From a virus (lineage: Duplodnaviria; Caudoviricetes), in the IMG/VR virus record IMGVR_UViG_3300020477_000120, positions 1 to 25,003 of that record: a stretch of DNA of 25,003 nucleotides, one strand, 5' to 3'. Position 1 is the stretch's first letter; the number at the start of each line of letters is the position of its first letter. Made by a program: the position numbers and the translations under genes. Under the pieces are notes generated by a model. That model was given only the letters and a program-made list of their open reading frames with translations, was not told the origin of the DNA and did not search any database. Positions 2,078-20,020 of the stretch are shown piece by piece.

Positions 2078-4018
2078 TTATATGACTTCACATGCGTTTC
2101 CAGTGCAAGCTAATTCCTGACTGGATGTAGTGTAGTCCTCTTTTTCATAGTCACTAAGTTCACCCCATGTAACCATAGGAACCATACTTGTGAGTTCAAT
2201 AAATTTTTGTTCATCACACTCTTCGTAGGGTGCTTGTTGATAACTATGGTCACTATGTGGTAAAAAAGATATACCAGATATACTATCAAAATTATCGTAC
2301 ACCCATGCACCTACATCTACCCATTCATCTTCTTTTACTGAAATAGTAACCGAAGGTTTATGTTCACACCAATGTTCAGCATACATCTTCCATGTCTCAA
2401 GCTGAGTTATAGCATCTAACTCATCTCTCATCACGGATCTCTCAGGACTCTGCATTGGAAAAGAGAACACCATGTTAGACTTGTTTATCACATCCTCTTC
2501 GCACGGAAACCCTTTCTCTCGCATAAACTTACATAATGGATCTTTCTTATCCATTCTGATTCTACGTATGTAGTACCATGAGTGTCTAGCATGAATACCA
2601 GATGCTGAGTTACAGAGTTGACTTACAGTACCCGAAGGTTTGACACAAGTAATTGAAGAAGATGGGTTAATATTAAGTTTCTTAGCCCACTCCTGGTTTG
2701 TCTTAATAGCAACTGCTTTGAAATCCTCTAGCATCTTAGGTTCAGGAAATGCTGTCAACTCATTATCCATGATACCAGTTAGAGACACACCAAGCAACCT
2801 TTCTTCTTCACAATTCTTCTTCCATTCTGCACTGAGGTACTTGAAGTCAGTTAATGTAGACTGCATGGTACCTAGTATTGTTGCAAATTTAATCTTATCC
2901 TTTATATTTACTTGGGTATCTTTTTCCCTAATGACTACTTCTGAAAGGTTGCAGAATTGTCTGGAACGTAGAATGATTTCGGAACATGGATTGGTACCGA
3001 AGTCTTCTCTAGCATCCCTTCTATCTCCAAGTTTTTCTGTGTGAGTCTGAGAGTTTTTCGATGAGTAGATACCACGTTCTCCAGACTTCGACTCGTAAAG
3101 GGAAGTCCATTCATTAAGGAAGGTTCCCGTGTCAGGTTTGGAGTGATAGTTTGCTGAATTGTTTGCGAGTGCTCTGTGTGGGTGCTCGTCCCACCATCGC
3201 CCACTTTTCGCCTTCCGCATTTGTTCATCGCCAAGGTCACTGATACTAATAAGAGCAGACCTACGAACCCCACCAACGACCACAACCTCCGCCGCTTTGC
3301 ATACAATGTCATGGCACTCAATTGGTTTGAGTTTTCTTCCTCTTGCATATTCAAATGTACGTACTGTGAAATTAAATAGAGACTCTAGTGGCTCTGGTCC
3401 AGAGGCTCTGCCTCCAAATGTTTTCAACACAGACCCAGCAGGTCTCACTTTACTCGTGTCCCAATCAGGTATTACACCTGCATACAACAGAGCAATCAGA
3501 TCCTTGAATGCTTTTGCCCACCCAAGTTTACTATCTCTAACTGTAATCTTTGTGTCAGTCTTATGCAGCTTATCTGGTATCACAGGTAGTTTACTTGTGT
3601 ACTTTTCTTCTACACTAAAGCCTACACCAGTACCATTCATAAGAATGTACACAATCTCATCAAAGGATCGTGGAGAATCTATGTGAACATAGGAACAATT
3701 GTACCCTGCTACATTCTCTTTTTCTAACGCTGGACCTGCTGTCATAAGACACCTCATACTTGGCATAACATCGAGGTTCTTAACTGCATCCACGAGATCA
3801 CGTAGTGTCTGTGTAGATGTAAAGTCAATATCTAGTTTTTCACTGAAGAAGTTGAAGTATCTTGTTACTGTCTCTTCCCATGTCTCTCTTCTGTTCTTCT
3901 CATAGTCCCACCGAGAGTAGCGAGACAAATGGATAAGTTGTTGGTATTGCGTTGGTAGTGTCACGTATACATACTCATTGAATTTGGTTAATATATAATC
4001 ACGGAACTCAGGAGTCAC
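2078..4018 (-). CDS. nrdJ: Class II (adenosylcobalamin-dependent) ribonucleotide reductase
   Basis: 646 aa with SRYSRW..RRETWEE, YNCSY, GGVRRSA, TNPCSEI (thiyl Cys), CVKPSGT and a C-terminal CxxxxC (CTGNAC). No small-subunit gene is adjacent. Exact start uncertain. Confidence 0.93.
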   Translation of the reverse strand: MTPEFRDYILTKFNEYVYVTLPTQYQQLIHLSRYSRWDYEKNRRETWEETVTRYFNFFSEKLDIDFTSTQTLRDLVDAVKNLDVMPSMRCLMTAGPALEKENVAGYNCSYVHIDSPRSFDEIVYILMNGTGVGFSVEEKYTSKLPVIPDKLHKTDTKITVRDSKLGWAKAFKDLIALLYAGVIPDWDTSKVRPAGSVLKTFGGRASGPEPLESLFNFTVRTFEYARGRKLKPIECHDIVCKAAEVVVVGGVRRSALISISDLGDEQMRKAKSGRWWDEHPHRALANNSANYHSKPDTGTFLNEWTSLYESKSGERGIYSSKNSQTHTEKLGDRRDAREDFGTNPCSEIILRSRQFCNLSEVVIREKDTQVNIKDKIKFATILGTMQSTLTDFKYLSAEWKKNCEEERLLGVSLTGIMDNELTAFPEPKMLEDFKAVAIKTNQEWAKKLNINPSSSITCVKPSGTVSQLCNSASGIHARHSWYYIRRIRMDKKDPLCKFMREKGFPCEEDVINKSNMVFSFPMQSPERSVMRDELDAITQLETWKMYAEHWCEHKPSVTISVKEDEWVDVGAWVYDNFDSISGISFLPHSDHSYQQAPYEECDEQKFIELTSMVPMVTWGELSDYEKEDYTTSSQELACTGNACEVI

Positions 4019-10616: not shown

Positions 10617-13052
10617 CTATGAGAAAAAGTATTTAGATTGTAGCACACCATTTATATCAAGTGACCCTTGTGCTGGTGGATCACCTATGTTCGGTATAAC
10701 ATTATACACGTTATCGTGCAAAATGTCAAGTACACTCTCTGACGAGTACATCTTATGAAACGACTCTCGTATAGCTTCAGCCATACGTGGTGTATGATTA
10801 GCATGTACACCATACGAGTCATGAACAACAGCGAAATCACTGATGCCTTCTAGTATACACTGATTGATGGTCAATGTCAAGGCAGAAGCATCCATACTGT
10901 GGACAAAATTAGGACTCAACCCATTGGTTGCCCTTCGTTTATCGATACGATCTGTCTCTTCTAACACTGACGGTTTTATCAATACATTATCAATGTGGGT
11001 TGTCACCCTACGTCCCTTCATACTTTTGTAGACCTGATTGACTACAAAGTTCGTAGGTGTTTCCCATGTTATGGGTAGGTTACGAATAGACATTTCTCTG
11101 CCTATGTCTCGCAACCATGCCATAGCATCACGTGCGGCAACAACAACTTCGCCAATTGCATCCCATACATGTTGGGATAGGTACAAAGAAGCCTCGTAGA
11201 CTTGCTCATTAAAAGGATTGTGAGCACCTGCAAGTATGCGGTCGTGCATAGCCTCTTCCACATATTCACGGCACGAGTATCGTGTACCTCCGTATGGCAC
11301 AACCATGACTGGACGTTTGGTTATCTTCCGATCAATCCCGAAGTCAAGCCAAGCCTGTGCATAAGGTACCCCTATTATAGCATCTTCGTTCACCTTTGTC
11401 AAGACCACATCTGCTACCATCTGGTAGATGTCCTGTGGGACATCCTCTGGTGTCAGGTTTGTGGCTTTACCACCCACAGGGTCACGGAGCATAGCAGAAA
11501 AATGCTGTAATCCATTATTCGACCCATCCAAACAAATTGGTATTTGTGACATGTAGCCGAGACCCTCAACAACAAACTCAGCCCACTCGTTACACCACGC
11601 AAGAAAGGACCAAGGTTCGTCTGCTTTTGTCCACCATCTATAGTCAAGAGGTGACTTAGCCGACTCGCAAATCTCTTTCGTATGAGTGTGGACCCATTCG
11701 ACTCTTTCATTATAAGACACCTTATCATAACCAAAACAGTTGGCACCATGAACTGCAAAGTACATCTCTTGGTCATCTGTTTTGATAGGTAGTTTCTTAG
11801 CAAAATAGAGTAAAGACTTTGCATAGTCTGGACCCTGTGGTGTAAGAAACGAGTTTACTGTGTATTTGCGACCACGGAAGTCACACTGGTACACAAAATA
11901 AAGTGCAGGATACTTAGCAAACCTCTCTGCCATTTGCAATGTACGTGCCAACTGTATTCTCTTTGAGGTCATCTTGGCATTCAGATCATAAACGACAGTA
12001 GCCTTCTTTTTCCATTTGATAAACTTATCAAGTTCTTCCTCTGTCATAGTAGCTTTAGTCCCTTTGACTGGACTAGGTAGAACTTTGTAGTCCTCTCGTG
12101 GAGGTAAGTTGGCCCAGGATTCACCAGTATCCCAACATTCCTGGATTGTTTTTAACAGTCTTTCATTAACTTTCCATTGTGTCCTTTGTAAAGCGTTGAT
12201 AGCACCATATTCCAATGGCATACGATGGTTCATCATTTCCTCAAGATACTCTCTATTACGAGTCTTGATCATAGGAAATGGGTTCAACTTGTCACTGTGG
12301 TACCCTCCGTTGTACGGATTACTCCAGTCTTTCGGTGGTATCACACATGGGTAGAAGTACGGATGTACTGTCTCCCCCTCTTTGTTAAGCTGATCAATCC
12401 AATGTATTGTAGCATCATTAGCTTGCAAATACAAGATACGTTGCTTACGCTTGAACTGAACTGTCTTAACTTCCATGAGACCAGTATTTTGAATCAGTAT
12501 GTCAATCAACTTGGTACCCAAGTGCAACTTTTCACGTTTTGACCAAGGTTCATGATCCAACATTTCAACCTTGGACATCTGACGGATCAGATTGTACCTA
12601 CGATACACACGATTGGTTGTCTTACTGTTCACACGTTTCTTTAACAATCGAAACATGGTACTGGTATCACCAGAGTTTTGCCAAAGGTCAAACTTAAATT
12701 GATCCTCCAGTCCATTAGCCAATTTCATGGCAACTCTGGTAAATGGACTACGAGTAGACACACCATCAATAGTGTATTTAAGTGTAAGATACGCACACAC
12801 CTCTGGGTCAAGCAGCATCAGAGTCTGCACTGAGGTCTGGTGTTTTCCTGGCTTGCCACTCAAGGCTTCATCAAGAAAAGCATTGATCCCATCACAAACG
12901 ACATCCAACGCCTCTTTCATCAGAGTCACACCATATAGGGTGGTAGACTCACGGCTTTTATTCTTTGCATCACGAATGTTCTTGTGGTACCTTTCAATAC
13001 CAAGTGCATTCATGTCATGTTCTATCTGTTCCTGCTCAAGTTTTAGATTCAA
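10617..13052 (-). CDS. Single-subunit DNA-directed RNA polymerase (T7 gp1-like)
   Basis: 811 aa with DFRGRKY, DGSNNGLQH, RKITKRPVMVVPYG, PNFVHSMDAS and VHDSY. Confidence 0.98.
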   Translation of the reverse strand: MNLKLEQEQIEHDMNALGIERYHKNIRDAKNKSRESTTLYGVTLMKEALDVVCDGINAFLDEALSGKPGKHQTSVQTLMLLDPEVCAYLTLKYTIDGVSTRSPFTRVAMKLANGLEDQFKFDLWQNSGDTSTMFRLLKKRVNSKTTNRVYRRYNLIRQMSKVEMLDHEPWSKREKLHLGTKLIDILIQNTGLMEVKTVQFKRKQRILYLQANDATIHWIDQLNKEGETVHPYFYPCVIPPKDWSNPYNGGYHSDKLNPFPMIKTRNREYLEEMMNHRMPLEYGAINALQRTQWKVNERLLKTIQECWDTGESWANLPPREDYKVLPSPVKGTKATMTEEELDKFIKWKKKATVVYDLNAKMTSKRIQLARTLQMAERFAKYPALYFVYQCDFRGRKYTVNSFLTPQGPDYAKSLLYFAKKLPIKTDDQEMYFAVHGANCFGYDKVSYNERVEWVHTHTKEICESAKSPLDYRWWTKADEPWSFLAWCNEWAEFVVEGLGYMSQIPICLDGSNNGLQHFSAMLRDPVGGKATNLTPEDVPQDIYQMVADVVLTKVNEDAIIGVPYAQAWLDFGIDRKITKRPVMVVPYGGTRYSCREYVEEAMHDRILAGAHNPFNEQVYEASLYLSQHVWDAIGEVVVAARDAMAWLRDIGREMSIRNLPITWETPTNFVVNQVYKSMKGRRVTTHIDNVLIKPSVLEETDRIDKRRATNGLSPNFVHSMDASALTLTINQCILEGISDFAVVHDSYGVHANHTPRMAEAIRESFHKMYSSESVLDILHDNVYNVIPNIGDPPAQGSLDINGVLQSKYFFS
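10701..10729 (-). promoter_or_regulatory. Perfect-consensus sigma70 promoter within the 3' end of the RNAP gene, upstream of SSB
   Basis: TTGACA-N17-TATAAT (TTGACATTTTGCACGATAACGTGTATAAT). Confidence 0.75.
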
Positions 13053-13442: not shown

Positions 13443-13617
13443 GGTTTAACCTCTTGAGATATAGTTCATGTTTAAGAATTAACGTGTCAACCTTAGATTG
13501 AATCACACGTTGACTCCATGTCAACTCATGAAGTTTAAAAGAAGCATGTATGCTAAATGTAAGCCATAGTATAGCACATACTGTAACAAATGTCAAGACC
13601 ACCTTTGTAATGTCCAT
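13399..13617 (-). CDS. Small putative membrane protein
   Basis: ATG lies 4 nt after the tRNA-Trp CCA; one hydrophobic segment (VVLTFVTVCAILWLTF). No clear RBS, and it contains a promoter. Confidence 0.4.
   Translation of the reverse strand: MDITKVVLTFVTVCAILWLTFSIHASFKLHELTWSQRVIQSKVDTLILKHELYLKRLNHERYKEQRVADPQG
13568..13596 (-). promoter_or_regulatory. Sigma70 promoter downstream of tRNA-Trp
   Basis: TTGACA-N17-TATACT with an extended -10 TG. Confidence 0.7.
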
Positions 13618-13620
13618 GTT

Positions 13621-13694
13621 TGGCACCTCATATAAGAATCGAACTCATGTCTACTGGTTTGGAATCAGTCATGTTACCACTACACCAATGAGGT
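13621..13694 (-). tRNA. trnW: tRNA-Trp (CCA)
   Basis: ACCTCAT TG GTGT AGTGGTA ACAT G ACTGA TTCCAAA CCAGT AGAC ATGAG TTCGATT CTTAT ATGAGGT G CCA: a full cloverleaf with G73 and encoded CCA, 74 nt. Confidence 0.93.
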
Positions 13695-13697
13695 GTG

Positions 13698-13872
13698 TAT
13701 AGTACACCATGCAGTCAAGTCCTGGGTTTGCAATCACCCTGTACGCACCTGCACATAATCAACCTACCTGCTGAATAGGTAGCCAACCCTACTGTCCAAG
13801 AAGATAGCGAACTTCTTTAGACATCAGCAACCAAGTCCACCATAGTCCCTCAGTCGAGTTAGGTGTACTATA
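13698..13872 (-). ncRNA. Unknown structured RNA 'A' (~175 nt) between the tRNAs
   Basis: Perfect 11-bp closing stem TATAGTACACC/GGTGTACTATA; internal hairpins (TGTCT.AAGAAG/CTTCTTGGACA, CTACCT/AGGTAG, GGGT/ACCC) whose G-U pairs favour the - strand; no long ORF; ends 3 nt before tRNA-Trp. Confidence 0.6.
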
Positions 13873-13878
13873 TTCTAG

Positions 13879-13959
13879 TGGAGACAGGAACCTCATAATC
13901 TAACGATTTAAGGAATTCGTAGCTATTGAGTGTTTACAATAGTATCTAGCCTGTCTCCA
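13879..13959 (-). ncRNA. Unknown structured RNA 'B' (~81 nt) directly after tRNA-Tyr
   Basis: Perfect 10-bp closing stem TGGAGACAGG/CCTGTCTCCA enclosing the hairpins CTATTG/CAATAG and ACGA/TCGT. Confidence 0.6.
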
Positions 13960-13963
13960 TGTT

Positions 13964-14049
13964 TGGTGGGTGAGGTAGGATTTTAACCTACAAGTGTGTG
14001 CACACGCCTGATTTACAGTCAGGTTCCTTTTACATTTGGATACTCACCC
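13964..14049 (-). tRNA. trnY: tRNA-Tyr (GTA), class II long variable arm
   Basis: GGGTGAG TA TCC AAATGTAAAA GGA A CCTGA CTGTAAA TCAGG CGTGTGCACACACTT GTAGG TTAAAAT CCTAC CTCACCC A CCA; A73 and encoded CCA, 86 nt. Confidence 0.9.
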
Positions 14050-14055
14050 GTGTTC

Positions 14056-14202
14056 TTACTCTTCCAGATCTTCAAAAAACACACCACTCTGGAAGTGTTC
14101 AAAAAAATCTTCAGCCACTATTTCTTCTTCATCCTCAGATTCGTACACAGCTTCATAAACTGCATCTAAGAATGACCAAAGAGGATCATTACGCTCAGTC
14201 AT
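14056..14202 (-). CDS. Very acidic 48-aa peptide (DNA-mimic candidate)
   Basis: Not in the ORF track. ATGA overlap with the upstream gene; MTERNDPLWSFLDAVYEAVYESEDEEEIVAEDFFEHFQSGVFFEDLEE; stop lies 6 nt before tRNA-Tyr. Confidence 0.7.
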   Translation of the reverse strand: MTERNDPLWSFLDAVYEAVYESEDEEEIVAEDFFEHFQSGVFFEDLEE

Positions 14203-14423
14203 TCGGTGACAATCTCCACTTCTGTAACGGTACTCGTGACATACGCTTTCTCTGCATGTGTCTCGTGTACAATACGAAACTCAGCACCTGTAGTGTCCAT
14301 AACCATCTTACGTATGGCATTTATCAGATGAACTTCATTCATAGACTCTATGTCAATGAATTTGTTCTTTGATTTACTCAGGTACTCAATACGTGGTTTC
14401 GGTTGTTTCTTTAAGTTTACCAT
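14199..14423 (-). CDS. Small phage hypothetical protein
   Basis: 74 aa with RBS GGAG and the pattern YLSKSKNKFIDIESMNEVHLINAIRK. Confidence 0.75.
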   Translation of the reverse strand: MVNLKKQPKPRIEYLSKSKNKFIDIESMNEVHLINAIRKMVMDTTGAEFRIVHETHAEKAYVTSTVTEVEIVTE

Positions 14424-14442
14424 ATCAAATCTCCATTGTCAA
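14414..14442 (-). promoter_or_regulatory. Sigma70-type promoter upstream of the tRNA/ncRNA cluster
   Basis: TTGACA-N17-TAAACT with an extended -10 TG. Confidence 0.6.
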
Positions 14443-15229: not shown

Positions 15230-15258
15230 ATTATAGCATGTCTCACTGCAAGTGTCAA
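15230..15258 (-). promoter_or_regulatory. Early sigma70 promoter (perfect consensus)
   Basis: TTGACA-N17-TATAAT with an extended -10 TG. Confidence 0.85.
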
Positions 15259-15336: not shown

Positions 15337-15969
15337 TCATACCAGACACTCCTGATGAAGTGCAGACACATCAGCACCACCTGTGAAATAGCAATCCTGC
15401 TTTTCACCTATAAGGTTACACCAGTTGATCCACATGTTGACAGAACCACCTGCCTCATCCACTATGTCAAGGTATTGGTATACCTTGCGTGATTTTGTGT
15501 CCTCATTGTTACCTGAGGTTTGCAGGAATGCAGGTGTACCTTTGGACGCATCAAGCTCTGGCATGTAACGCTTGATGTTATGAACGTCCATACAACCTGC
15601 CTTGCCAGTAAGTAGCTGAACTACAAAGGCAGACTTAGGTATACCTAACCCTGGTACCTCTAAGAACAACATGATAAGATCATGATCAGCATCAGCCTTC
15701 TTGGCTTTGATGATGGACATAGCCCTAGCATATAGGTCATCACGATGCTTACGTACATAGGTAAGCCCTGTACGTTTGTTGCCCCAGATCCAAGATGACT
15801 TGAGACCTCTTTTTCTCCATTCACGCATGAACTTAGGCAAGAGAAAAGTCTGGACTCTAATACTAGCGAATACAAACGCTATAAGTTGCTCCATGTGCTT
15901 TGCACTGGTTTGACCAAAGGTACGTGTGTACCCATTATGCTGTAAATAATGTTTTCTAGTTGCTTCCAT
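15337..15969 (-). CDS. HhH-GPD superfamily DNA glycosylase-like protein
   Basis: 210 aa with the helix-hairpin-helix LFLEVPGLGIPKSAFVVQLL followed by GCMDVHN, placing Lys and Asp at OGG/EndoIII-type catalytic positions; RBS AGGAG. Confidence 0.65.
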   Translation of the reverse strand: MEATRKHYLQHNGYTRTFGQTSAKHMEQLIAFVFASIRVQTFLLPKFMREWRKRGLKSSWIWGNKRTGLTYVRKHRDDLYARAMSIIKAKKADADHDLIMLFLEVPGLGIPKSAFVVQLLTGKAGCMDVHNIKRYMPELDASKGTPAFLQTSGNNEDTKSRKVYQYLDIVDEAGGSVNMWINWCNLIGEKQDCYFTGGADVSALHQECLV

Positions 15970-17758: not shown

Positions 17759-17851
17759 ACATGCTCCTATGTTTGTGTGTTTGCGTTTGTGTAACGTGCA
17801 CTCAAGCATCTGATCTGTCTGATTGCTGTGCCGTTGCTCACGTTGGCTTCA

Positions 17852-17879
17852 AGTATACAGGTTGAAACGCAAAAGTCAA
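17852..17879 (-). promoter_or_regulatory. Probable first early promoter
   Basis: TTGACT-N16-TATACT. Confidence 0.5.
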
Positions 17880-18346
17880 ATCGAGGGTCTCTCTGGCACC
17901 GAAGGTGCTGTGCGTACACGAGGGCAGCCGTGATCACGTTGCTAACACACGCAACGACCTTGGTCGTCACACGGCAACACACGTTACGTTGGTCACCTTG
18001 GTTTAACTACGTTAAAAAAACAGATGCAATTGGATATATAGCTAATCAAACCAATGAATACCTATATACCCAATCAATCCTCGTGTGTACACAGGTATGC
18101 AAGCGTCATACCAGCGTTTACCTGCGTATACATAGGCATGACTCGTGCATGGGCACACACGTACACACAGGAATGCAAAAGTCGTGCCACAAGTTCACGT
18201 GGGACACCCCCGATGGGGGACATTTCCATTCCCATCGATTGCTAACCATCTCATATTTTTTTACCAAATTATGACTAACAGGACATTAGATACATACATT
18301 AGTATACCATAGTCCACTTTAGTAGTACCACTACACTATATACTAA
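17880..18346. other. Non-coding genome-end / probable direct terminal repeat region
   Basis: Lies between terL and the first early promoter, as at the T7 concatemer junction. No - strand ORF with an RBS; contains the CCCCC-GAT-GGGGG palindrome (18207-18219) and AATTTGGTAAAAAAATATGAG on the - strand (about 18250-18270). Confidence 0.65.
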
Positions 18347-20020
18347 CTATATACTAAACCATCTAGGTTGTACTTCAGTAAACTTATTTACACTCATGGC
18401 ATTCTGCATGAATATCTCAAGTTCCTTATCTAGTAAATAATCTTTCCTTGTCTTCATCTCACGATCTACATCAGCAGACATTTGTTCTACCCAGTATGCT
18501 ACTGCCATAGACAACACATCCAGTCTGTCGTCATGTACTAAAGCCCCACGTTCTTTAGTTACCCTAGTCATCTGGTAAGCTAACATGTACTTAGGTTGCT
18601 TTTCTGGTGGGTAGTGTTGTACTGAACTATAGTCTTTCTCAAGTGCTTTCCTGTCGATCACTAGCTTATGCTGATTCATCACAGGTTCTAAGACATCAAT
18701 AATCCTTTTCTCTTTCTGGATGTTGTGTCTGACTTCTTCTATCGTCACAGGGTGAACCTTAGTCAACACAGGTTTAAGCAACTCAGTAAACATACCATCA
18801 CCGAAGTTAGACTCCACAAGTACATAGTTTACCTTATGCTGCCTTGCAATCATGCTTATGGTCTTCAGTACACGTTCTCCATAACCACCCTCTATGCCCC
18901 CAAAGTCTACAACATAAAGATAACCATTCAGCATCTTAACTACAGCGTATGCTGTTTCGTCTTGCCCACGACCACTAGGGTCAATTGCTAACAGTGACCC
19001 TGTGTAATCAATGTAATCTCCAACAGTATCCAAGGGCTTATAATAAAAGTCACCAGGAAGCCCGACATTAGGAATGTCAACAATCTTATCCTTGTCTCTT
19101 CCCCAAATAATCTTCTCTGGTCCCTTTTCACTATCTACATCCATTACAATCAAATCCTCAAGTTTAAGTGGGTATCTATTGGCATCACTTAAACTCGTAT
19201 CTAACATAAACTGTAGGCTGAACCCTGATCTACCATAGGACAACTCACGTTCCAATAAATCATGGTCATTAAAACGTCTAGGGTCAGTAGGTTGTCCTGT
19301 GATGGTAGGATCAGTGTCCACCTGTCTAACTAGCGTATCCGCCAGTCTACCATTGTACTTAATAGTATCCTTTGGGTATCTAGCGGGCCATATTTTAACT
19401 TTGTATCCACGTTCAGGTAATACTTCATACAAACTCATTTCAGTCTGTGGTGTACCTAAATACACAACACGACCATCAGGTTTTAAGACAGCATCAAATT
19501 CTTTGACAGCCTCAGAGATCTTGTCTCTCATAGTTTGTGTCATGGAGTTATTAGGTATCTCTATGTCATCTGCAATAATCAAGTCTGCTCGACTACCAGC
19601 CAACTGACCAGTGATACCAGCAGACTTCACAGAGGGACTGTGAGATGCTTTGGCAGGACCAACGTCAAAACTAATCTTAGATTGACGCTGGTTGTCTCTA
19701 GGAATGAGATGTTGAAGAAGCGGCATCTCCTGAATAAGCCGCATGGTAAAGGTGCTGAAGTCATCTGCTCTTATCTTACTTGCAGATACCACCAGTATTT
19801 TAACTTCAGGGTTGAGATATAATTGGTGACATGCGTAAGCAGAGGTAATGTAAGATTTCCCTGCACCACGAAATGCCTCTATGACAATACGTTTTTCATC
19901 TGACTGTAGATATTCAGCCATATCATACTGTACTGGAGTAGGCTCTGGAAGGTTTAAATGGGACCACACGACAAAAAGAAAGTTACGGAAGTCTCTCAGG
20001 TCATCTACTATCGTTTCCAT
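18347..20020 (-). CDS. terL: Terminase large subunit (T7 gp19-like)
   Basis: EAFRGAGKS (Walker A), IIADDIE (Walker B), IDPSGRGQDE, ESNFGDGM and HDDRLD. Confidence 0.97.
   Translation of the reverse strand: METIVDDLRDFRNFLFVVWSHLNLPEPTPVQYDMAEYLQSDEKRIVIEAFRGAGKSYITSAYACHQLYLNPEVKILVVSASKIRADDFSTFTMRLIQEMPLLQHLIPRDNQRQSKISFDVGPAKASHSPSVKSAGITGQLAGSRADLIIADDIEIPNNSMTQTMRDKISEAVKEFDAVLKPDGRVVYLGTPQTEMSLYEVLPERGYKVKIWPARYPKDTIKYNGRLADTLVRQVDTDPTITGQPTDPRRFNDHDLLERELSYGRSGFSLQFMLDTSLSDANRYPLKLEDLIVMDVDSEKGPEKIIWGRDKDKIVDIPNVGLPGDFYYKPLDTVGDYIDYTGSLLAIDPSGRGQDETAYAVVKMLNGYLYVVDFGGIEGGYGERVLKTISMIARQHKVNYVLVESNFGDGMFTELLKPVLTKVHPVTIEEVRHNIQKEKRIIDVLEPVMNQHKLVIDRKALEKDYSSVQHYPPEKQPKYMLAYQMTRVTKERGALVHDDRLDVLSMAVAYWVEQMSADVDREMKTRKDYLLDKELEIFMQNAMSVNKFTEVQPRWFSI

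What the first reader, a model, noticed from the sequence alone, without database searches (positions are those of the whole stretch)
13621..14049. tRNA-punctuated cassette: tRNA-Tyr, RNA B, RNA A, tRNA-Trp
Seen: the 269 nt between the two tRNAs are almost fully tiled by two self-closed domains (10-bp and 11-bp perfect terminal stems) separated by spacers of only 4, 6 and 3 nt. There is no substantial ORF, and a sigma70 promoter lies upstream (14414-14442). Known: RNase P and 3'-processing nucleases cut at tRNA boundaries, phage tRNA regions harbour orphan structured RNAs, and tRNAs are uncommon in T7-like phages. Inference: host tRNA maturation liberates two discrete small RNAs early in infection, a possibly undescribed phage RNA system (defence decoys, ribozyme or translation modulators). 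I do not recognise either RNA as tmRNA, SRP, 6S, RNase P or a known ribozyme.
Basis: partly seen in the sequence, partly recalled or inferred. Interest (0 to 1): 0.85.

Follow-up and report, generated by a model that had tools for sequence, protein, structure and literature searches.

The report
Swappable phage RNA with G-quadruplex signature
Between two tRNA genes of an uncultured T7-like phage lies a 175-base non-coding RNA whose fold is conserved by compensating changes in related phages and which is gained and lost among near-identical phages; it is likely cut out by the host's tRNA-processing enzymes, is predicted to carry a G-quadruplex and a self-pairing tip, and likely acts as a decoy against host defences, while the neighbouring 80-base RNA had no relative in the searches run here.

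Summary
Relatives show a modular cassette: of 19 other records with this tRNA-Trp, 11 carry RNA A, 1 a 45-nt mini form, 6 an empty site, 1 is cut short; 0 carry RNA B; other orphan modules occur. RNA A is a real structured RNA: 14 distinct full-length variants, 9 of 48 pairs with compensatory change, 0/500 shuffles, including a loop-loop pseudoknot. New features: its least conserved, unpaired strand keeps exactly four GG tracts in 10 of 11 distinct versions (2.5 expected), and the mini form keeps only the closing stem plus four tracts; the arm tip is a palindrome in two unrelated sequences. One lineage has three tracts, and full-length folding does not pick a quadruplex. Processing, expression and function are untested. 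Same kind as T4 rnaC/D and T5 stable RNAs, with no detectable homology. The scan's earlier notes held no look-alike.

The parts
13964..14049 (-). tRNA-Tyr(GTA), CCA encoded
   Evidence: ARAGORN; Rfam 57.4 bits
13876..13959 (-). RNA B: closed three-way-junction domain, 10-bp terminal stem (13959-13950/13888-13879), tRNA-like AU leader and ACUA 3' end; no relative found
   Evidence: z -4.63; no homologue
13698..13872 (-). RNA A: 175-nt conserved structured RNA (P1 closing stem; P2-G-tract-P3 side arm capped by two kissing hairpins; P6 arm)
   Evidence: 14 distinct full-length variants; covariation; independent fold of divergent L032
13852..13860 (-). RNA A helix P2, 5' strand (pairs with 13764-13757)
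   Evidence: 95.7% of cells paired; one-base deletion on both strands in 5 variants, on one strand in L102; not predicted by RNAalifold
13831..13849 (-). Unpaired G-tract segment with four GG runs (13849-47, 13841-40, 13838-37, 13832-31): predicted two-tier G-quadruplex
13770..13828 (-). P3/P4/P5 three-way junction with loop-loop pairing GCUA (13808-13805) to UGGC (13785-13782)
   Evidence: helix 6: 100% paired, C-G to U-A in 3 of 13
13728..13735 (-). Apical loop of P6, GAUUGCAA, ending in the palindrome UUGCAA; predicted dimerisation tip
   Evidence: invariant in 13 of 13; L032 has a different palindromic loop
13621..13694 (-). tRNA-Trp(CCA), CCA encoded
14414..14442 (-). sigma70-type promoter-like site nearest upstream of the cassette
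   Evidence: 10/12 + TG; recurs in L007 and L099; function not shown
15230..15258 (-). perfect-consensus sigma70 promoter-like site further upstream in the early region
   Evidence: 12/12 + TG
13568..13596 (-). sigma70 promoter-like site just after tRNA-Trp, facing the RNA polymerase gene
   Evidence: 11/12 + TG
10617..13052 (-). T7-type RNA polymerase gene: places the cassette in the early region of a T7-like phage
   Evidence: PHROG 414 E 3e-252; best cultured relative 40% identical

Best explanation
The stretch is one state of a swappable tRNA cassette in the early region of a T7-like phage, and RNA A is a conserved 175-nt folded non-coding RNA that is likely made by the host polymerase early in infection, likely released as a stable RNA by the enzymes that mature the flanking tRNAs, and likely works in trans as a decoy that ties up a host RNA-binding defence factor through a predicted two-tier G-quadruplex held between two helices and a predicted self-dimerising palindromic tip. 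Shown: the fold (P1 closing stem; P6 arm; side arm P2, G-tract strand, P3, two hairpins paired loop to loop), the modular gain and loss, the four GG tracts, the palindromic loops, the shared tRNA-type leader. Inferred: transcription from the sigma70 sites; RNase P cutting at the base of P1 and before tRNA-Trp (with RNase E or exonuclease trimming), or RNase III in the stand-alone lineage; quadruplex and dimer formation; the decoy role. RNA B is likely a second, unrelated stable-RNA module of the same cassette.
For: Fold: on a plain MAFFT alignment of 13 variants (A3), 48 named pairs are 94.8% paired, 9 pairs change on both sides, 0 of 500 shuffles reach this, slid controls fall to 35-48%; RNAalifold finds P1, P3, P4, P5, P6 unaided; divergent L032 (41.7 bits, E 3e-8) folds alone into the same P1-P6 layout with a wholly different P6 sequence. 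Trans, not cis: the module downstream of RNA A is tRNA-Trp, tRNA-Gly, tRNA-His, another orphan RNA, or two different ORFs. Accessory: L001, L002, L005 (polymerase 98% identical) lack it, L003 (98%) has it. Processing signal: the leader (G/A)AAUAU before RNA A is the same as before tRNA-Cys in L100/L120 and close to that before tRNA-Tyr in L099; RNase P is known to cut non-tRNA phage RNAs (PMC11143913, passages). G-tracts: the segment is the least conserved part (43% mean identity against 82% elsewhere), has 13 C in 209 letters, yet has exactly four GG runs in 10 of 11 distinct segments with loops of 1-7 nt; with the outer tracts fixed and the middle shuffled 2.5 of 11 are expected; 1.1% of 24-mers in the window have four; the 45-nt mini form is P1 plus four tracts and folds as a quadruplex at -27.5 against -15.7 kcal/mol. 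Tip: UUGCAA in 13 variants, AGAUCU (within CAGAUCUG) at the same loop end in L032; palindromic hexamers are 0.8% of the window. Defence context: phage tRNA-Tyr counters retron-Eco7 (PMC11555353, abstract).
Against: No transcript, end or level was seen: four RNA-library runs gave contigs only; one covered 59 nt of RNA A's 3' end joined to tRNA-Trp and none covered RNA B. L112/L161 have only three GG runs in the segment; a fourth would have to come from a bulged tract or the opposite strand. ViennaRNA with quadruplexes allowed picks none in 14 of 14 full-length variants. The 11 segments share ancestry, so 10 of 11 is not 11 independent trials. The palindrome swap rests on one divergent sequence, UUGCAA self-pairs weakly (-4.5 kcal/mol), and the loop also matches the anticodon loop region of this clade's tRNA-Cys. 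The loop-loop pairing has one compensatory site and is doubtful in L032. RNAalifold does not predict P2. No host, target or partner protein is known; the decoy role is by analogy only. RNA B has no comparative support.
Confidence: 0.45

Rival explanations
1. RNA A is a small-molecule sponge: the G-tract pocket between P2 and P3 binds a guanine nucleotide signal or a planar ligand (a natural counterpart of selected quadruplex aptamers), rather than a protein.
For: The tracts sit between two helices next to an invariant GAGG/AG(G/U)UA internal loop; the three-tract lineage (L112/L161) would leave a vacancy that a guanine ligand could fill; mini form = stem-closed quadruplex. The likeness to Mango/Spinach and GTP aptamers is recalled, from no call.
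Against: Loop sequences and lengths vary freely (1-7 nt), unlike a precise ligand pocket; no expression platform; no binding data.
Confidence: 0.15
2. RNA A is a tRNA or anticodon-loop mimic that soaks up tRNA-cleaving nucleases or modifying enzymes alongside the real tRNAs; the GG runs are incidental.
For: Apical loop region matches the anticodon arm of this clade's tRNA-Cys over 12 nt (seen); a T-loop-like UUCG hairpin pairs with a second hairpin, recalling the tRNA elbow; cassette mates are tRNAs with known anti-defence roles (PMC11555353, abstract).
Against: The loop is 8 nt in a register supported by U-A/U-G variation (pair 147-156), not a 7-nt anticodon loop; L032 replaces it with an unrelated palindrome; the T-loop consensus is not kept (CUAG.. 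in L161, UUCA.. in L032); ARAGORN and Rfam see no tRNA; the mini form lacks all these parts.
Confidence: 0.13
3. The modules act in cis as processing or stability elements that protect the early transcript or pace tRNA maturation; no free RNA function.
For: In L112/L161 RNA A has a long extended closing stem and sits directly before a ribosome-binding site and ORF with no tRNA nearby; closed stems and a quadruplex would block nucleases.
Against: Six records mature the same two tRNAs with a 2-nt spacer; a pseudoknotted multi-helix fold under covariation is more than a stabiliser needs; downstream neighbours differ.
Confidence: 0.14
4. The G-rich strand is a Shine-Dalgarno decoy or antisense seed that modulates translation.
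For: GAGG is invariant and GGAGG/GGUGG recur.
Against: Pairing to an anti-Shine-Dalgarno motif is no better than shuffles in 10 of 10 segments (P 0.06-0.71); longest antisense match in the phage's own DNA is 7-11 nt in 4 of 4 loci; GGA or UGG repeats are not conserved.
Confidence: 0.06
5. RNA A is a self-cleaving ribozyme or a selfish inverted-repeat insertion.
For: Sits next to tRNA ends, has terminal inverted repeats and a loop-loop contact; CUGAUG resembles the start of a hammerhead core.
Against: No Rfam ribozyme match at E up to 5 or 2; the hammerhead-like bases are in covarying Watson-Crick helices (helices 3-4); no target-site duplication at filled against empty sites; always in the transcribed orientation with a tRNA-type leader.
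Confidence: 0.07

Closest known systems
T4 rnaC/rnaD (species 1 and 2) and T5 RNA I, III, IV, 2H, rna1-3, X
   Same: Closed-stem multi-helix non-coding RNAs of 73-172 nt packed between phage tRNA genes with few-base spacers, annotated 'stable RNA with unknown functions' (PMC9697503 passages). RNA B's three-way junction resembles T5 RNA III, IV and rna3 in outline.
   Different: No sequence or model match (nhmmer; model R1 best 11.2 bits); no CCA end or T-arm; T7-like early region instead of large lytic phages; four-GG strand, loop-loop pseudoknot and palindromic tip; present or absent among 98%-identical phages.
Self-assembling orphan RNAs GOLLD, ROOL, OLE, ARRPOF, manA, EGFOA
   Same: Ornate folds that oligomerise through kissing loops or palindromic pairing (PMC12990946 passages; 10.64898/2026.07.01.735769 abstract, for RNAs under 200 nt); tRNA and phage association of GOLLD/ROOL/manA is recalled.
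   Different: No Rfam match; different size and topology; oligomerisation of RNA A is only predicted.
Bacterial Y RNAs (YrlA) with Ro60
   Same: Long closing stem plus a T-loop-like hairpin and a second hairpin that may contact it (YrlA layout recalled).
   Different: No Rfam match; T-loop consensus not kept; no TROVE/Ro60 gene in 3 of 3 records searched, one complete.
In-vitro selected quadruplex aptamers (Mango, Spinach/Broccoli, Corn; recalled, no call)
   Same: Two-tier GG tracts closed by a stem (mini form) or set between two helices (full form); dimerisation.
   Different: These are artificial; here the motif is natural and its quadruplex is untested.
Theta (HDV-like) ribozymes at phage tRNA 3' ends (recalled, no call)
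   Same: Structured RNA directly after a phage tRNA.
   Different: Both RNAs are closed by a terminal stem, not a nested double pseudoknot starting at the cut; no Rfam HDV-like match.

Membership tests
T4/T5-type tRNA-cluster stable RNAs (kind) | Non-coding, closed-stem RNA between tRNA genes with short spacers | tested here: met
T4/T5-type tRNA-cluster stable RNAs (kind) | Accumulates as a discrete stable RNA after host processing | not testable with these tools
   one search gave contigs only, which cannot show ends or level
T4 rnaC/rnaD or any of 8 T5 stable RNAs (family) | Sequence or structure homology | tested here: not met
   0 of 10 reference RNAs matched on the sense strand; R1 best 11.2 bits
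Any Rfam 15 family (tmRNA, SRP, 6S, RNase P, ribozymes, GOLLD, ROOL, manA, EGFOA, YrlA) | Covariance-model match | tested here: not met
   only tRNAs reach significance in the window and in 10 related loci
Y RNA (YrlA) | Ro60/TROVE gene nearby | tested here: not met
   0 of 3 records, controls ring; host genome unknown
Y RNA (YrlA) | Conserved tRNA T-loop | tested here: not met
   loop varies UUCGCUA/CUCGCUAA/CUAGCUAA/UUCGUUG
Two-tier RNA G-quadruplex | Four GG tracts in an unpaired strand, kept while loops vary | tested here: met
   10 of 11 distinct segments; L112/L161 segment has three
Two-tier RNA G-quadruplex | Predicted thermodynamic stability | tested here: inconclusive
   chosen for the mini form, for 0 of 14 full-length variants
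Two-tier RNA G-quadruplex | K+-dependent tetrad formation | not testable with these tools
   needs probing, CD or NMR
Palindromic kissing-loop dimer RNA | Self-complementary hexamer in an apical loop kept through sequence change | tested here: inconclusive
   two different palindromes at the same place, but only one divergent case
Hammerhead / HDV-like ribozyme | Catalytic core nucleotides in the right topology | tested here: not met
MITE-like insertion | Target-site duplication at filled against empty site | tested here: not met

The most novel reading that the evidence does not exclude
RNA A is a natural, evolutionarily conserved G-quadruplex aptamer: a tRNA-processed phage RNA whose scaffold presents a two-tier quadruplex (reducible to a 45-nt stem-plus-quadruplex) and dimerises through a palindromic tip, used as a plug-in anti-defence sponge in a cassette of interchangeable tRNAs and orphan RNAs (B, C, D, E).
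Probability: 0.33. Interest if true: 0.9.

Novelty: new variant of a known kind. Interest (0 to 1): 0.7.

Why it matters
The job of the orphan stable RNAs in phage tRNA clusters (T4 rnaC/D, T5 RNAs) has stayed open for decades. Here natural filled and empty alleles exist in phages with 98% identical polymerases, with a natural minimal deletion form, so the question becomes directly testable. A quadruplex kept by selection in a phage non-coding RNA would be very surprising: none turned up in the paper searches run here, and such folds are best known from selected aptamers and mRNAs. The cassette also offers at least four further unclassified RNA modules.

Tried and rejected
Rfam on the window stretch and on 10 related loci: tRNAs only. 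BLAST of the cassette, of the spacer and of L019's RNA A+C against cultured phages: tRNA or chance matches only. RNA B relatives: none among loci then held, 0 of 20 closing-stem pattern loci, 0 of 120 inner-hairpin pattern loci (that scan stopped after 21 of 64 parts, so it is incomplete). RNA A in prokaryote genomes: 0 of 39 pattern loci pass the model (best 16.7 bits, by eye unrelated). Further viral RNA A: 10 of 11 loci were chance; 64 of 70 loci fail the model; one search gave no new variant (4 of 58 were records already held). RNA A in more distant relatives: only L032 besides the window among 65 sources, many cut short upstream; 0 of 5 whole records (no positive control). Polymerase of the stand-alone lineage: absent from the short contigs, so its distance is unknown. 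RNA-library contigs: 24 runs listed with small shares, 4 laid; they hold the two tRNAs and the empty Tyr-Trp allele and say nothing on expression; parts without cover are no finding. Anti-Shine-Dalgarno pairing, antisense targets, CsrA-type GGA repeats, T-box-type UGG repeats, hammerhead core, target-site duplication, Ro60 link, T4/T5 homology: rejected as above. Host: not identified (best cultured polymerase 40%). Fremin et al. 2023 (PMC10690425): no motif or contig hit in supplement files 3-6, but the two alignment archives and three large files could not be read, so RNA A may be among its unnamed candidates.

Full report
Setting. The window is part of a T7-like phage with all genes on the minus strand: terminase, then the left-end early genes, then a T7-type RNA polymerase at 13052-10617. 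The nearest cultured polymerase is 40% identical, so the host is unknown. The cassette lies about 570 nt upstream of the polymerase gene among small unannotated ORFs and several sigma70-like sites.

Observation. The quoted promoter is real as a pattern and recurs in two relatives but is separated from the cassette by coding sequence, and promoter-like sites are not in excess over shuffles in this region.

Relatives show a modular cassette. Searches with the polymerase and with the tRNA-Trp 5' end gave 19 distinct other records with this tRNA-Trp (21 loci; L090 and L094 dropped as duplicates of L019 and L007). Full RNA A is in 11, a 45-nt mini form in 1 (L007), an empty 2-nt site in 6, and 1 is cut short. 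RNA B is in none. Phages with 98% identical polymerase differ in having RNA A (L003) or not (L001, L002, L005). The slot also holds tRNA-Ala, -Cys, -Gly, -His, -Asp and three other orphan domains, here called C (L019, z -3.2), D (L100, z -5.6) and E (L100, L120, z -1.2). A structured pattern scan added L120, L112, L161 and the divergent L032 (6 of 70 loci pass the model). In L112/L161 RNA A stands alone near the left end of a related early region, with a longer closing stem, no tRNA, and different ORFs behind it. So A and B are not a fixed pair, and RNA A is tied to no downstream gene.

Structure of RNA A. Thirteen distinct close variants (mean pairwise identity 78%, lowest 65%) were aligned by MAFFT without structure. 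The model has P1 (closing), a side arm P2, an unpaired G-rich strand opposite a 5-nt strand, P3, and a three-way junction whose hairpins P4 and P5 pair loop to loop, then P6 stacked on P1. Of 613 cells 94.8% pair; 9 of 48 pairs change on both sides; 0 of 500 shuffles match this and slid registers give 35-48% (the tool warns that related sequences can beat shuffles, and 2 of the 9 pairs come from the shifted P1 of L112/L161). RNAalifold finds P1, P3, P4, P5, P6 but not P2 or the pseudoknot. P2 loses one base on both strands in 5 variants and on one strand only in L102. The loop-loop helix is paired in 13 of 13, with C-G to U-A in 3, and is doubtful in L032. The best independent check is L032, which was not in the model: it scores 41.7 bits and folds by itself into P1, P2, P3, P4, P5 and a P6 of unrelated sequence, leaving the G-rich strand open. 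The window's own minimum-energy fold pairs that strand differently and is likely wrong there.

The G-rich strand. It is the most variable part (43% against 82%) and nearly free of C, yet 10 of 11 distinct versions, the mini form included, have exactly four GG runs and none has five; loop lengths range from 1 to 7. Holding the two conserved outer tracts and shuffling the middle gives 2.5 of 11; the versions are related, so this overstates significance. The mini form keeps only P1 and four tracts with 1-nt loops and is predicted to fold as a quadruplex; its interior is not a simple deletion of any full variant seen. Against: L112/L161 have three runs, and no full-length variant is predicted to form a quadruplex by nearest-neighbour energies, so the scaffold would have to stabilise it. 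Other readings of the G runs (anti-Shine-Dalgarno pairing, antisense seed, GGA or UGG repeats) failed.

The tip of P6. The loop ends in the palindrome UUGCAA in 13 of 13 close variants and in a different palindrome in L032; orphan module D has the same UUGCAA in a loop. Palindromic kissing is a common way for natural RNAs to dimerise (PMC12990946, passages). The alternative is an anticodon-loop mimic of this clade's tRNA-Cys; register and L032 argue against it.

Processing and expression. RNA A is preceded by the same AU-rich leader as tRNA-Cys and tRNA-Tyr in sister cassettes, and RNA B has a tRNA-like leader, a G-started stem and an ACUA end. RNase P cuts non-tRNA phage RNAs (PMC11143913, passages). 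Release is therefore plausible but inferred; tRNA cuts alone would free B and A as one piece. Public RNA runs were available only as contigs; 4 of 24 were laid and show the tRNAs, the empty allele, 59 nt of RNA A joined to tRNA-Trp and one further module variant, but cannot show ends or level.

RNA B. A well-folded three-way junction, but with no relative in any search, one of them incomplete. Its status rests on folding, clean module borders and the fact that this slot holds other orphan RNAs. I put its being a functional RNA at about 0.6, against about 0.92 for RNA A.

Mechanism. Early sigma70 transcription, tRNA-type release, accessory presence beside tRNAs of a kind known to counter tRNA-destroying defences (PMC11555353, abstract), and lack of catalytic, coding or cis signatures point to a trans-acting decoy (0.45). 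Ligand sponge, tRNA mimic and cis-stabiliser are the main rivals.

Comparison and novelty. It works like the T4 rnaC/rnaD and T5 stable RNAs, still of unknown function (PMC9697503, passages), but is homologous to none and to no Rfam family. Nine paper searches showed no description of this motif or of a conserved quadruplex in a phage non-coding RNA; the library lacks most subscription papers, and the alignment archives of PMC10690425 (passages and 4 of its supplement files seen) could not be read. Also seen: 10.64898/2026.07.01.735769 (abstract and outline), PMC13191261 (passages), PMC6974567 (search listing: quadruplexes in bacterial transcripts). Aptamer, YrlA and theta-ribozyme layouts are recalled. 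Verdict: a real, new RNA family of a known kind with an unusual predicted feature; interest 0.7.

Noticed in passing
L019:576-768 (+); a variant end in run X1: Orphan module C, about 190 nt, closed stem, between RNA A and tRNA-Trp; z -3.2, no Rfam match. The X1 variant's last 30 letters share a 12-letter stretch with T4 rnaC, but L019's module C shows no match to rnaC.
   Followed up: partly
L100 (oriented) 758-842 and 917-1025; L120; L092 start: Orphan modules D (about 78 nt, z -5.6, loop containing the same GAUUGCAA as RNA A) and E (about 100 nt, z -1.2, in L100 and L120, 3' end in L092).
   Followed up: partly
L071:2959-3090 (+): In a phage with a 51% identical polymerase: the same tRNA-Tyr as the window, a different tRNA-Trp, then a small three-way-junction domain and a long hairpin; suggests tRNA-Tyr moves between distant phages.
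   Followed up: partly
L037, L039, L041, L043, L047, L057, L062, L067, L068, about 400-600 nt before the polymerase gene: A conserved non-coding element in the 69-71% polymerase group: a TTGAC-type promoter-like start followed by a hairpin and a U-rich end; possibly another small RNA.
   Followed up: no
window 13621-13694; L100 and L120 tRNA-Cys: tRNA-Trp and the clade's tRNA-Cys have near-identical anticodon arms with an A-C mismatch at the last stem pair, differing mainly in the anticodon.
   Followed up: no
window 15337-15969 (-): 210-aa early ORF with a helix-hairpin-helix-like motif (LLFLEVPGLG-type stretch; DNA-glycosylase likeness recalled); no PHROG match.
   Followed up: partly
L001:1355-1831 (+) and many relatives: 158-aa gene (phrog_624, DNA binding) that replaces other early genes just upstream of the cassette and carries a strong sigma70-like site inside its coding sequence.
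   Followed up: partly
window 14056-14202 (-): 48-aa very acidic ORF directly before tRNA-Tyr; relatives have different acidic ORFs at this place (possible DNA-mimic type proteins, inference).
   Followed up: no
window about 17800-18350: Long low-coding stretch rich in TGTG/CACA repeats between terminase and early genes, likely the genome's terminal repeat region; similar repeats precede RNA A in L161.
   Followed up: no
window 2078-4018 (-): 646-aa ribonucleotide reductase-like gene (class II likeness recalled from motifs; not searched).
   Followed up: no
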